Assembly: GCF_016026235.1 (NCBI RefSeq)
Contig: NZ_CP065613.1
Origin: Escherichia coli
GTDB lineage: Bacteria; Pseudomonadota; Gammaproteobacteria; Enterobacterales; Enterobacteriaceae
DNA: 64,000 nt
Reading direction: 5' to 3' (one strand)
Each line of letters begins with the position of its first letter. The first letter of the stretch is position 1. Below are positions 61,401 through 64,000 of this stretch, piece by piece. Position numbers: made by a program.

Positions 61401-64000
61401 CCCTTCACACACCAGCAATTAAAATCCCGCTTCTCCAGATGGAAGAATGCACCAGCAGATACTGGTGATTTTGAGATTACCCATACATTTGATTACGCAT
61501 CAGAAGATGACCTTCGCAATGCAATTAAGCTGATTGAAGACTTCAATACCTCAGAAGATGTGGATGGTGACAAATATAAATCCCGTGGTAACCGCTATAA
61601 CCGTGATGATATCACTCAGGCCATAAATGCTGGTCAATCTCAGCGATACATCACAGAAAAATATGGTATTTCACGGAGACAGTATTTCTACGTTAAATCA
61701 TTGATTAATAAGGACAATTCAAAATAACCATCTAAGTAACGGTAGAATGCACTTTACAGGCAGAGTTGCACCTTAATTTGATAAATTACCTTACCAGCCA
61801 GTGCAACTCCCTCTGTAACCCGCATGGTTACTGGCCTCAGAATGGCTATTTTAAGAGGTCTGAGATGTGTTTTATAGGAAATTTAAAAATGAGCAATTAC
61901 GAATTACAGATTTTTGTTGATAACGACACCGTGACCATGCTTCAACACTTCACTGATGTAGGTATCGCAATTAATTTTGATAAATTACTAAAGCTGATGG
62001 CTGATAATGCAGAAAACATCTCTGACTTTATTCAGTCGGTGGAGTTTAACGAGCCCCGAATGATGCTACCAATTACAGACAGCAGTATGAAGCGTCTTAT
62101 TATTGAGGAAACTAACCGATACAGCGTTAGCCCTGAAAAATATCTCAAGGCGGCTGTAACAATTTTGTACGCTGACAGTATTCTGGTGACGGATTCTGTG
62201 AGGGTTCACTAATGGGTTTAATAATTGCTTGGACGTTGCTTGGCTTATTTGTTGGTTGCTGGGTGGGTAATACGGTAAATAAAAATTGATATTACCAATC
62301 TGTTAAAAAGCTGTTGACAAATAACCTTAAGCATGGCATAATTTTAATTATGGGAGAGCAATTCTCTCTTATTTCTTTCAACAATTCCATCTACGTCTAG
62401 GGATAGTTATTCTGAAAGGTGCAATGCTTTTCGTCATGGCTTATTTAGCCCGCACTAAATAGGCCATATCAAAAATCTTTGTTCATTCATTGAATCCTTT
62501 AGATGTTTTTAATTTCTTCACCTTATGAATAGCCCTTTATAAGAAATTATCTAGGGCTATTCAGTTTTTAAAAAGCATACTTGGCAAACGCTTTTAAGTC
62601 TCTTCTAAGTTTTTTGTATGGCTGTCAAGTATGCTTTTTAAAAACTGAAATACTTTAGCTTAGAAGAGGAAAAAACAATGACAAACGATTTATATTTTAA
62701 CGGTCGAAAGATTGATAGCTTCGGTGACTGGTCACCACAGACTGAACATCCGCTACATATTATTCAGCGTCAAGAGCATGACAAGCGTATTGAGCTTGAG
62801 CAAGAAATCCGAAGGTCACCAAAGGTAATTTCCTTTGTGTCCCCTGAGCCTCAAGAGATGCCTGATGTATGCAAAACTGAATCATTATTTAATCTTGAGC
62901 GTGAATATTACCCACTGCTAAAAGCACAGCGTATTAAACTAGATGATGCTTACGATGCTGTTAAGAACTTCGAAGAAACCTCGAAACCTTCAGAATATGA
63001 TATTGCTTACGAGATTAAGTCAAACCCGTTTATCTATTATGAAGGAAACTTTAATGATGGTTTTGGTACAGCGATTGAAGACGTTCCTAAAGTTCTTCAA
63101 AGTATCCCTGAAGGGTTCCGGTTAATTGATGTCAGACAAGCATTAAGGGGTTCTGGTCAATTTATTCTGATGACTGGTAAAACAGATGAAGAGATTCTTC
63201 AGTTAGCTGAAGCTAATTTGACTAAGCATTATTCCGGTAAACTGGATAAGTTAAAGCAAAAGCTTAAAAAAGAACTTGATAGCATGAAAGAACTTGTTAG
63301 TGAATATGAATCACAGAAGAAGATTGCTATGCAGGCTGATATTGAGCAGCTTACGAAGATTTCTCAGAAATATAGCAAAGCACTTTAATTATGAGGTGGT
63401 GAATGATTGATTTAACAGAACGCTATGAGCTTATTAAAGCAATTAGCGAACGATTGAAAGAACAACCCAACAAACCAAAACGAATCAAATCATCCACCTC
63501 CTCTAAGCAAAATAACAGAATCAGAAGAATCGCTAAATGGTGTCTTGATAAATTACCAAGTGATTGTCAGATTGTCGGTGAAGATGGTAATTATTATCTG
63601 GTTAGGTAAAAATTGGTTGGGTAGAAAATCTACGGGAGAGATTATCGATATTATTCGGTAGTTTCTCCCTTTTTTGTATGTGCACTACGTGAAATCTGTA
63701 AAGCTAATATCTACACTGAAAAATAGAATTTACGTACAACACGCTTAAACAAAGGTATGAGGTGAAAAAATATGAATGAGCAAATTCACAGTTGATAGTT
63801 TTATCGTTGAACTGGGCTTCAATGAGAACGTTATTAAAGGTCTGCAAAAAGTTGAAAAGGCAGCTTTGCAGTCAGCACAAAAAATTGAACGGAATTTGAA
63901 TAGAGCGTTTAAGGTCGATACCAAGCAACTTGACAGCAATTTAACGGCTTCTTTAAAGTCAATGGAGGGGAAGATTAATAAAACTTTTGACCGTCTGGAA

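What the first reader, a model, noticed from the sequence alone, without database searches (positions are those of the whole stretch)
63776..64000. Partial ORF at the window edge that continues the foreign element
Seen in sequence: ATG at 63776 with SD gaggtg opens a frame (MSKFTVDSFIVELGFNENVIKGLQKVEKAALQSAQKIERNLNRAF...) that is still open at position 64000; it is not in the ORF track because no stop is reached. Its helical, charged N-terminus could fit several protein classes, so the element clearly extends beyond this window.
Basis: seen in the sequence. Interest (0 to 1): 0.3.

Follow-up and report, generated by a model that had tools for sequence, protein, structure and literature searches.

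The report
Satellite tape-measure gene, IS-broken
The open frame at the window's edge is the start of a phage tail "tape measure" gene carried by a small mobile element that looks like an undescribed parasite (satellite) of Felix O1-type virulent phages; in this strain the gene is cut by an IS911 insertion 574 bases past the window end.

Summary
In detail: the ATG at 63776, the GAGGTG Shine-Dalgarno at 63759-63764 and 75 open codons are all present. Contigs 100% identical to the window show the frame runs to 266 codons. It is then stopped by the first three bases (TGA) of an IS911 insertion. Removing the IS restores a 682-aa tape measure protein (TMP).

The gene lies in an 11.35-kb low-GC element inserted in mdtG by a large serine recombinase (LSR). 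The element also encodes a Dam-like methylase, a replication initiator, six small unknown proteins, the TMP and a tube-initiator protein. It has no capsid, terminase, sheath, tube or lysis genes. DNA related to the stretch around the ORF occurs in about 8% of complete E. coli genomes, at four or more insertion sites, and in E. albertii.

The TMP and tube initiator are homologues, in the same order, of Felix O1 gp67/gp68 (Bas63 gp17/gp18, PDB 9NDY). The 47 N-terminal residues seen in the window are about 70% identical to the phage protein.

The element also carries non-coding DNA homologous to the right boundary of the phage's direct terminal repeat, spanning the mapped genome terminus, and to the phage's gene 40/41 intergenic region.

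Best reading: a satellite of Felix O1-like virulent myoviruses that builds chimeric tails, as Vibrio PLEs do with ICP1. No description of it was found. This copy is probably crippled.

The parts
55891..56939 (-). 3' part of the chromosomal gene mdtG, cut off by the element. The attL junction lies at 56933-56939, a 7-nt overlap between the two halves of attB.
   Evidence: Alignment with K-12 mdtG: K-12 locus positions 1-4313 match the window up to 56939, and positions 4307 onward resume after the element in L019 and L002. PGAP annotates the same truncated mdtG in L002.
56940..64000 (+). Left 7.06 kb of an 11.35-kb integrative element (12.6 kb with IS911). GC is 36-39%, against about 51% in the flanking chromosome.
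   Evidence: Composition profile. Whole element seen in L019, L002, L001, L003 and L016-L023.
57527..58078 (+). Small serine recombinase / DNA invertase-like gene in a variable accessory slot.
   Evidence: PF00239 E = 6e-42; phrog_125 DNA invertase E = 2.5e-57. Other elements have an unrelated recombinase on the other strand, another gene, or nothing in this slot. No flanking inverted repeats.
58119..58269 (+). Non-coding block homologous to the right boundary of the direct terminal repeat (DTR) of Felix O1-like phages. The position equivalent to the phage genome terminus is 58157|58158 (GTACC|AAGCAG).
   Evidence: Collinear matches to Felix O1 13301-13316 and 13411-13452 with identical 110-nt spacing. 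The DTR of phage D4 is 1-581 = 88859-89439, and D4 position 1 = Felix 12771. In the alignment the D4 (581) and HP1 (570) termini fall in the same column inside a conserved island.
58300..58362 (+). Non-coding block 87% identical (reverse orientation) to the Felix O1 gene 40/41 intergenic region. It contains the palindrome GATATCC-cagaaa-GGATATC at 58323-58342.
   Evidence: The block is found only in 253 Felix O1-like phage records and always in intergenic DNA. Same region in phage Moogle. The Felix O1 paper places divergent transcription units there.
58423..59085 (+). Dam-like N6-adenine DNA methyltransferase with a C-terminal HTH.
   Evidence: PF05869 E = 7e-14; phrog_111 E = 1.6e-24; PADLOC orphan methyltransferase.
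59466..60401 (+). Replication-initiator-like protein (311 aa as called in identical contigs).
   Evidence: PHROG replication initiation families 8102, 428, 678 and 270 (E = 5e-11 to 2e-7). Weak DnaD_N and HTH hits.
60401..62212 (+). Four small conserved genes of unknown function (60401-60691, 61012-61302, 61302-61727, 61889-62212).
   Evidence: Called in 100% identical contigs. No Pfam, PHROG or PADLOC hits.
62678..63388 (+). Conserved 236-aa coiled-coil protein directly upstream of the tail genes. Function unknown (PGAP calls some homologues 'transposase', which nothing here supports).
   Evidence: Conserved in all elements and in E. albertii. AlphaFold2 model pLDDT 73.5 with long helices. 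No fold or sequence match.
63403..63609 (+). Conserved 68-aa protein of unknown function.
   Evidence: The exact sequence is indexed in 86 blocks of the contig collection (23 contigs read), always between the 236-aa gene and the TMP gene.
63634..63679 (+). Intrinsic-terminator-like hairpin (15 bp stem) plus T-tract, conserved upstream of the TMP gene in all elements.
   Evidence: Terminator scan. Fold -27.7 kcal/mol, z = -4.6. Conserved across ten elements, and in several it abuts the Shine-Dalgarno directly.
63759..63764 (+). Shine-Dalgarno GAGGTG of the TMP gene.
   Evidence: Seen in sequence. Conserved GAGGT(G) in the homologues.
63776..64000 (+). First 75 codons of the tape measure protein gene (the finding). 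In identical contigs the frame ends at virtual position 64576, with the TGA supplied by IS911.

Best explanation
SHOWN. The ORF is the 5' end of a tail tape measure protein (TMP) gene. It lies in an 11.35-kb element integrated in mdtG by a large serine recombinase (LSR).

In contigs identical to the window the gene is interrupted after codon 265 by IS911. The IS is 1,249 bp with a 3-bp GCA target duplication, and its first three bases, TGA, form the stop codon. This strain can therefore make only a 266-aa stub that lacks the TMP domain. Excising the IS in silico restores a clean 682-aa TMP.

The TMP and the next gene are syntenic homologues of Felix O1 gp67 and gp68 (Bas63 gp17 TMP and gp18 tube initiator).

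INFERRED. The element is a phage satellite of Felix O1-like (Ounavirinae) virulent myoviruses. Proposed mechanism:
1. Infection by such a phage activates the element.
2. The LSR excises it and its own initiator replicates it.
3. The phage terminase recognises the element's copy of the phage terminal-repeat boundary and packages it.
4. The element's TMP and tube initiator replace the phage's in the baseplate core, docking on the phage hub through the conserved TMP C-terminus.

The result would be chimeric tails about 3-10 nm shorter, which carry the satellite and probably reduce phage yield. This is the strategy shown experimentally for Vibrio PLEs with phage ICP1.

In this strain the IS911 insertion probably cripples the tail-substitution step.
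For: Identity of the ORF
- The 75 aa match Felix O1 gp67 from residue 1 (48.7% identity, E = 1e-21). DNA similarity begins 9 nt upstream of the ATG.
- Full-length homologues carry PF20155 (E about 1e-19), TIGR02675 and phrog_4036 (E = 1e-80).
- The TMP profile matches PDB 9ndy_F, the Felix-type TMP, at E = 1.7e-257. The partner protein matches 9ndy_A, the tube initiator, at E = 2e-122.

Continuation and IS
- L012, L014 and L015 are 100% identical to the window; L019 is 99.94% identical.
- The frame is 266 aa and is followed by IS911.
- The reconstructed 682-aa protein has PF20155 at residues 235-398; the 266-aa stub has no domain.

The gene family is functional
- All uninterrupted copies are clean ORFs of 682-722 aa. 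dN/dS is 0.16-0.39 for the TMP and 0.13-0.39 for the tube initiator.

Satellite-like anatomy
- LSR, replication initiator and about 11 kb in size, with no capsid, terminase, sheath, tube or lysis genes.
- Related DNA in 459 of 5,426 complete E. coli genomes, up to four places per genome.
- At least four attB sites, and an identical LSR is always at the same site.

Specific link to a virulent phage lineage
- The tube initiator is 67-82% identical to Felix O1 gp68, which falls within the elements' own diversity of 69-91%.
- The TMP N-terminal 47 aa and the C-terminal LLSSSYPEE are conserved. In Bas63 the last 25 TMP residues dock on the hub and puncturing apparatus, which the element does not encode.
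- One non-coding block spans the mapped DTR terminus of these phages. A second matches the gene 40/41 intergenic region. Both occur only in Felix O1-like phages.
- GC is 36-39%, against 39% in Felix O1.

Precedent
- PLEs integrate by an LSR, parasitise a virulent myovirus and encode a tail assembly chaperone, TMP and baseplate hub 19-41% identical to ICP1's. Their TMP is incorporated into virions with tails 10 nm shorter.
Against: - There is no direct evidence of induction, excision, packaging or transfer.
- No excised or circular form was seen in ten genomic contexts of an intact LSR.
- Only five relatives were found in IMG/VR, all proviral predictions from isolate genomes.
- No counterpart of the left DTR boundary was found in the element.
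- No recognisable tail assembly chaperone, capsid-size or small-terminase gene was found. The 236-aa protein has no fold match.
- The DTR-boundary block is only about 70% identical overall and could be a regulatory or replication sequence rather than a packaging site.
- The window itself ends before the IS, so the IS in this exact genome is inferred from three 100%-identical assemblies.
Confidence: 0.6

Rival explanations
1. Anti-phage interference island without phage-mediated transfer. The element supplies decoy TMP and tube-initiator subunits that co-assemble with Felix O1-like baseplates and poison tail assembly. Its phage-like DNA blocks serve only as infection sensors or as decoys for the terminase. 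It would spread by other routes.
For: The same homology data apply. The TMP docking termini are conserved while the body has diverged to about 30% identity. Tail-assembly interference is a known defence strategy of mobile elements (Tai systems, listed; Rta of PLE11). No packaging evidence was found.
Against: Interference and hijacking are not exclusive; PLE does both. An LSR, a dedicated replication initiator and a copy of the phage terminus are hard to explain without excision, replication and packaging. TMPs shorter by 20-60 aa would be expected to give shorter but working tails, as shown for PLE11. No PADLOC defence model hits any gene apart from an orphan methylase.
Confidence: 0.2
2. Decayed remnant of a temperate relative of Ounavirinae. 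It would be a former full prophage, integrating by LSR, that lost its head, sheath, tube and lysis genes. The TMP and tube-initiator genes would be leftovers with no present function.
For: Gene order TMP then tube initiator, as in the phage. This particular copy and the Shigella copies are visibly decaying through IS insertions. PGAP simply annotates the genes as phage tail genes.
Against: The same compact architecture of about 11.4 kb recurs at four or more different attB sites with different LSRs, and in E. albertii, with no capsid or lysis remnants in any copy. Both tail genes are under purifying selection and are intact in most copies. No phage record matches the element's DNA at the megablast level. 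Known Felix O1-like phages are reported as lytic with no lysogeny genes, and none is annotated in Felix O1.
Confidence: 0.1
3. For the ORF alone: in the window's own genome the TMP gene is intact and full length, so the IS911 disruption applies only to related strains.
For: The window ends 574 nt before the insertion point, so the IS is not directly seen. A related element at the same mdtG site (L002) has an intact 682-aa TMP.
Against: Three independent assemblies that are 100% identical to the window over 1.8-11.3 kb all run into the IS at the same position. A fourth, at 99.94%, shows the whole interrupted gene. L002 is only 81.5% identical to the window over the last 1.3 kb.
Confidence: 0.07

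Closest known systems
Tape measure protein gp67 of Salmonella phage Felix O1 / gp17 of Escherichia phage Bas63 (PDB 9NDY), with the adjacent tube initiator gp68/gp18
   Same: Homologous end to end (26-31% identity). The first 47 residues are about 70% identical. The central PF20155 domain and the C-terminal hub-docking tail (LLSSSYPEE) are conserved. The gene order is the same, with a tube initiator 67-82% identical.
   Different: Encoded on an 11-kb chromosomal integrative element rather than an 86-kb virulent phage. It is 20-60 aa shorter, mostly through deletions in the N-terminal third. It has no adjacent chaperone, tube, sheath or hub genes. In this strain it is broken by IS911.
[quoted passage not shown]
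   Same: Small island integrated by a large serine recombinase, with its own replication initiator. It is tied to a virulent contractile-tailed phage and carries its own TMP and a baseplate-core protein related to the helper's. In PLE these give chimeric, shorter tails.
   Different: No sequence relationship was shown. Different host (Escherichia) and different helper lineage (Ounavirinae). The baseplate partner is the tube initiator rather than BhuB. No recognisable chaperone, TcaP-like scaffold or nuclease. The tail proteins are much closer to the helper's (up to 82% versus 19-41%). All functional steps are untested here.
P4 and cos-type PICIs (satellites that carry the helper's packaging site)
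   Same: A short non-coding copy of the helper's DNA-packaging recognition region sits on the satellite. P4 carries a P2-like cos and P2-like late promoters (established knowledge of P4/P2).
   Different: Here the mimic is of a direct-terminal-repeat boundary, not a cos site. Only one boundary was found, and its function is untested. The element has a serine, not tyrosine, integrase and no sid/psu/delta or PICI packaging genes.
EPIP satellites of Mycolicibacterium aichiense
   Same: Serine integrase and a TMP gene on a satellite. Particles have tails of altered length.
   Different: EPIPs also encode capsid, scaffold, small terminase and head-tail connector proteins. They parasitise a temperate siphovirus prophage.
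PICMI (minimalist satellites of virulent phages in Vibrionaceae)
   Same: Small islands parasitising virulent phages without capsid-remodelling genes. They are packaged as concatemers in full-size heads (abstract), which is a possible packaging model for an 11.35-kb element in an 86-89-kb head (about 7.7 copies).
   Different: PICMIs carry no tail genes. The family and the hosts are different.

Membership tests
Tape measure protein (Pfam PF20155 TMP_3 / NCBIfam TIGR02675) | Domain match above the curated cut-off | tested here: met
   Reconstructed window-lineage protein (682 aa): PF20155 62.8 bits against a cut-off of 41, residues 235-398. Homologues score 69-73 bits, and TIGR02675 52-61 bits against a cut-off of 21.
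Tape measure protein (Pfam PF20155 TMP_3 / NCBIfam TIGR02675) | The product actually encoded in this strain contains the domain | tested here: not met
   The 266-aa IS-truncated product has no Pfam hit. The 75 aa in the window have none either.
Felix O1 gp67-type TMP (Ounavirinae) | End-to-end homology, including the N-terminus and the C-terminal hub-docking tail | tested here: met
   tblastn covers 1-710 against 41881-44106. Alignment A3. Profile versus 9ndy_F covers 1-709 against 1-742, E = 1.7e-257.
Felix O1 gp67-type TMP (Ounavirinae) | Followed directly by the tube-initiator gene | tested here: met
   Dit-like gene 90-235 nt downstream in all complete elements. 9ndy_A E = 2e-122. Felix O1 gene order.
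Felix O1 gp67-type TMP (Ounavirinae) | Incorporated in a virion tail | not testable with these tools
   Needs proteomics of particles. Felix O1 gp67 and gp68 are virion proteins.
Phage satellite (general) | Integrase, own replication function, small size, and an incomplete virion gene set | tested here: met
   LSR with PF00239, PF07508 and PF13408. PHROG replication initiators. 11.35 kb. No capsid, terminase, sheath, tube or lysis hits.
Phage satellite (general) | Carries a packaging signal of the helper | tested here: inconclusive
   The block homologous to the DTR right boundary spans the mapped terminus. However, overall identity is only about 70%, no left boundary was found and function is untested.
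Phage satellite (general) | Induced, packaged and transferred by a helper phage | not testable with these tools
   No circular forms or virome contigs were found, which is not informative either way.
PLE (Vibrio cholerae) | Sequence homology to PLE genes (Int, RepA, TcaP, NixI, TMP groups) and a Vibrio host | not tested
The host is Escherichia and the helper lineage differs, so the element is treated as an analogue, not a member.
PICI / cf-PICI / P4-like satellites | Tyrosine integrase with AlpA and primase-replicase plus capsid-redirection or capsid genes (PICI, cf-PICI); sid, psu, delta and alpha genes (P4) | tested here: not met
   The only integrase is a serine recombinase. No Pfam or PHROG hits to any of these functions.
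Prophage (intact or defective) of a temperate phage | Head, packaging and lysis genes or their remnants | tested here: not met
   None in any of more than 15 copies inspected. No megablast match in 50,697 phage records.
IS911 (IS3 family), the interrupting element | Near-identity to IS911, terminal inverted repeats and a 3-bp target duplication | tested here: met
   99.9% identity over 1,249 bp to copies annotated IS911. TGAAGTGG... inverted repeats and a GCA duplication. Pfam HTH_Tnp_1 plus rve.

The most novel reading that the evidence does not exclude
These elements are a new family of Escherichia phage satellites that parasitise strictly virulent Felix O1-like myoviruses. They would use a mimic of the phage's terminal-repeat boundary for packaging, and would replace the tail's inner core (TMP plus tube initiator) to build chimeric tails. 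That would make this the first such system in E. coli, and the second family after Vibrio PLE shown to remodel tails. It would be directly testable with phages from the BASEL collection.
Probability: 0.5. Interest if true: 0.8.

Novelty: new variant of a known kind. Interest (0 to 1): 0.6.

Why it matters
Satellites of virulent phages are known from only a few systems, such as PLE with ICP1 and PICMI. Tail remodelling by a satellite has been shown only for PLE.

An E. coli counterpart tied to Felix O1-like phages would place this biology in the most tractable host. Felix O1-like phages are used for Salmonella typing and proposed for biocontrol and therapy, and their virion structure is solved.

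It could also help explain strain-to-strain variation in susceptibility to these phages, since related DNA is found in about 8% of complete E. coli genomes.

It offers a natural experiment on which TMP regions specify partner recognition: the conserved N-terminal 47 aa and the C-terminal tail, against a freely diverging body.

For annotation, it shows that 'tape measure protein' plus 'phage baseplate protein' next to a serine recombinase in E. coli is not a prophage remnant but a discrete 11-kb element.

Tried and rejected
1. CP-933C / OI-51 / SpLE2 of O157, recalled from memory as a possible name for the element. The paper shows OI-51 is a P4-like remnant at another locus. Rejected.

2. Invertible segment. 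The small recombinase lies on opposite strands in different elements. However, the genes are unrelated at the DNA level and there are no flanking inverted repeats. It is a variable accessory slot. Rejected.

3. P0001, the 88-aa 'hypothetical protein' of Shigella boydii and the best hit to the 75 aa, as the window's continuation. It differs at K36R and sits in another decayed copy near rutG/ymdF, cut by a different IS3-family insertion. It is not the window's gene.

4. The 236-aa and 68-aa upstream proteins as tail assembly chaperones. There is no similarity to Felix O1 ORF65/66, no PDB sequence hit, and no fold match for a pLDDT 73.5 model of the 236-aa protein. Unresolved.

5. Known defence systems. 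PADLOC hits only an orphan methylase.

6. Rfam. Nothing at gathering level in the element or in the Felix O1 DTR region.

7. Megablast of the window's last 1.4 kb against phages and plasmids: no match.

8. Viral contigs (IMG/VR): five proviral hits only.

9. Search for excised forms through LSR contexts: none.

10. Literature: ten searches found no paper linking Felix O1-like phages to a satellite or describing this element. The library lacks most subscription-journal papers.
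Full report
OBSERVATION

The sequence shows ATG at 63776-63778, GAGGTG at 63759-63764 and an uninterrupted frame of 75 codons to position 64000. A second ATG at 63772 is out of frame and closes after seven codons.

It is not a chance frame. The 75 residues match the first residues of the Felix O1 tape measure protein (TMP) at 48.7% identity (E = 1e-21 against the whole phage genome). The DNA similarity starts 9 nt upstream of the start codon.

SETTING

The window is an Escherichia/Shigella chromosome. The genes opgH, yceK and msyB are followed by mdtG, which is truncated. From about 56,940 the GC content falls from roughly 51% to 36-39%.

Alignment with K-12 puts the left junction at 56933-56939. 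This is a 7-nt overlap with the other half of the target site.

The low-GC DNA encodes, in order:
- a small serine recombinase;
- a Dam-like methyltransferase;
- a replication-initiator-like protein;
- six small proteins with no family match;
- the partial ORF.

THE REAL CONTINUATION

The window's source genome is not among the complete RefSeq E. coli genomes (best match 92%). I therefore looked up contigs that encode exactly the window's 236-aa and 68-aa proteins.

- Three assemblies (L012, L014, L015) are 100% identical to the window over 11.3, 5.8 and 1.8 kb and run about 600-670 nt beyond its end.
- A fourth (L019) is 99.94% identical and spans the whole element.

In all of them the frame continues to 266 codons and then stops at a TGA that is the first three bases of an inserted IS.

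The IS is IS911. It is 1,249 bp, 99.9% identical to annotated copies, and has TGAAGTGG... terminal repeats and a GCA target duplication.

Downstream come, in order:
- the remaining 417 codons of the gene;
- a 257-aa Dit-like gene;
- a 509-aa large serine recombinase (LSR) on the other strand;
- the 5' fragment of mdtG;
- lpxL.

The element is 12.6 kb with the IS and 11.35 kb without it.

Removing the IS and one copy of the duplication restores a clean 682-aa ORF with the TMP domain PF20155 at residues 235-398. The 266-aa stub has no domain. So the insertion is recent, and in this lineage the gene is most likely a pseudogene.

An independent IS truncation of a paralogous copy exists in Shigella (P0001, 88 aa).

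WHAT THE PROTEIN IS

Uninterrupted homologues are 682-722 aa. PGAP annotates them as tape measure protein. They match PF20155, TIGR02675 and PHROG 4036.

Against 50,697 phage genomes, the TMP's best relatives are the TMPs of Felix O1-like virulent myoviruses, at about 30% identity from residue 1. The downstream protein is 72% identical to the gene that follows the TMP in those phages.

A solved Felix-type structure (PDB 9NDY; the Bas63 paper) names the two proteins. gp17 is the TMP (742 aa) and gp18 is the tube initiator.

- The tube initiator forms a hexamer that adapts the threefold hub to the sixfold tube.
- The last 25 residues of the TMP dock on the hub and the puncturing apparatus.

The element's TMPs conserve that C-terminal tail (LLSSSYPEE) and the first 47 residues (about 70% identity). 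The body between them has diverged and has lost about 60 residues. The part visible in the window is therefore the best-conserved part of the protein.

THE ELEMENT FAMILY

DNA related to the last 1.4 kb of the window (the 236-aa gene through the TMP start) occurs in 459 of 5,426 complete E. coli genomes, with up to four places per genome and never on plasmids.

Complete copies keep the same compact plan: variable slot, dam, rep, small genes, the 236-aa and 68-aa genes, TMP, tube initiator, LSR. They sit at four or more sites:
- mdtG;
- yecE;
- a site next to yciI;
- a site between ymdF and wrbA.

An identical LSR is always found at the same site.

No copy has capsid, terminase, sheath, tube or lysis genes.

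Both tail genes are under purifying selection (dN/dS 0.13-0.39). The modules are mosaic between elements.

Felix O1 gp68 lies within the diversity of the elements' tube initiators. That suggests repeated exchange with the phages.

Among one genome per species, only E. albertii has the same module.

NON-CODING LINKS TO THE SAME PHAGES

The roughly 300 bp upstream of dam contains two blocks found only in Felix O1-like phages.

Block 1 (58300-58362) is 87% identical to the intergenic region between Felix O1 genes 40 and 41. The published analysis places divergent transcription units there. The block contains a palindrome.

Block 2 (58119-58269) is collinear with Felix O1 13301-13452, inside a 1.6-kb ORF-free region. 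That region turns out to be the genome terminus:
- Felix O1-like phages package by direct terminal repeats (DTR); PhageTerm gives 581 bp for one of them.
- In records opened at the physical ends, this region maps to both ends.
- In phage D4, positions 1-581 repeat exactly at the right end, and position 1 corresponds to Felix O1 12771.

The element's block aligns to D4 531-686, so it straddles the right DTR boundary. Two independently determined termini (D4 at 581, HP1 at 570) fall in the same alignment column, inside a conserved island. In the window this is GTACC|AAGCAG at 58157|58158.

I read this as a likely packaging-site mimic. It could instead be a regulatory or replication sequence.

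TRANSCRIPTION OF THE ORF

A 15-bp hairpin with a T-tract (63634-63679, z = -4.6) lies about 100 nt upstream of the ATG. It is conserved in every element. In several elements it abuts the Shine-Dalgarno, which leaves no room for a promoter. Expression of the tail genes therefore probably depends on read-through of this structure. What controls that is unknown.

MECHANISM AND COMPARISON

The closest functional precedent is PLE of Vibrio cholerae. PLE is an LSR-integrating satellite of the virulent myovirus ICP1.

- All PLEs encode their own TMP and chaperone, and most also encode their own baseplate hub.
- The PLE TMP and hub replace ICP1's in virions.
- The tails are 10 nm shorter.
- The authors state that no other satellite family was known to do this.

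A mycobacterial satellite class with a TMP has since been reported.

By analogy, and from the anatomy above, I propose that these Escherichia elements are satellites of Felix O1-like phages that substitute the tail's inner core and are packaged through the DTR-boundary mimic. Interference with the phage is a probable side effect or a second function.

None of these steps has been shown. No excised forms or virome copies were found. No left DTR boundary or chaperone was recognised.

The element is an analogue of PLE, not a member of that family. It fails the defining features of PICI, cf-PICI, P4-like satellites and prophages.

VERDICT

Taken narrowly, the ORF is the start of an IS911-broken TMP gene, which is an ordinary kind of lesion.

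Taken in context, it belongs to a widespread and apparently undescribed satellite-like family with a specific, multi-layered link to a virulent phage lineage. That context is why the interest score is above average.

Confidence is about 0.95 for the identity and disruption of the gene, and about 0.6 for the satellite mechanism.

Noticed in passing
window 57389-58078 versus L001 8684-9253, L016 4152-4727 and L003 1701-2534: The slot between the element's left arm and the phage-like non-coding blocks is variable. It holds a 183-aa resolvase on the + strand (window type), an unrelated 189-191-aa resolvase on the - strand, a 278-aa hypothetical protein, or nothing. It behaves like an accessory-gene hotspot.
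   Followed up: partly
window 55891-56939 (mdtG) and relatives in yecE: The elements integrate inside protein-coding genes (mdtG after about codon 60; the DUF72 gene yecE) and inactivate them. mdtG encodes a multidrug efflux pump, so carriage may carry a phenotypic cost, or excision could restore the gene.
   Followed up: no
L007/L008 (Shigella CP026845, CP026877) 10001-11475: A paralogous element next to rutG/ymdF is truncated at TMP codon about 85 by another IS3-family insertion, and everything downstream (tube initiator, LSR) is missing. This shows repeated IS-driven decay of these elements in Shigella.
   Followed up: partly
L002 19280-23395: In strain Ryan-0026, whose element is at the same mdtG site, the TMP is intact but the large serine recombinase gene is split by ISEc12 (IS21 family). 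That element is probably locked in place.
   Followed up: no
L120 4207-7524: A lambdoid prophage with a tyrosine integrase sits directly next to the element's LSR at yecE, which is a known Stx-phage integration site. The two kinds of element therefore share or compete for this locus.
   Followed up: no
window 58160-58350: The intergenic region is full of short GATAT / ATATC-containing repeats (for example ACAGACATCT-N-TTAGATAT twice, 110 nt apart). These could be iterons for the element's initiator or binding sites for a phage protein. The same motifs occur in the phage DTR region.
   Followed up: partly
L001 8641-8671; L016 and L017 left arms: Some elements, but not the window's, have a further 32-nt match (87.5%) to phage D4 1172-1203, just beyond the DTR near the end of the leftmost phage transcription unit.
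   Followed up: no
window 61299-61727: The 141/142-aa protein ends in a helix-turn-helix-like segment (…RYITEKYGISRRQYFYVKSLI), and the Dam-like methylase also carries a C-terminal resolvase-type HTH. Either could be a regulator or a small-terminase-like DNA-binding protein. No family hit.
   Followed up: no
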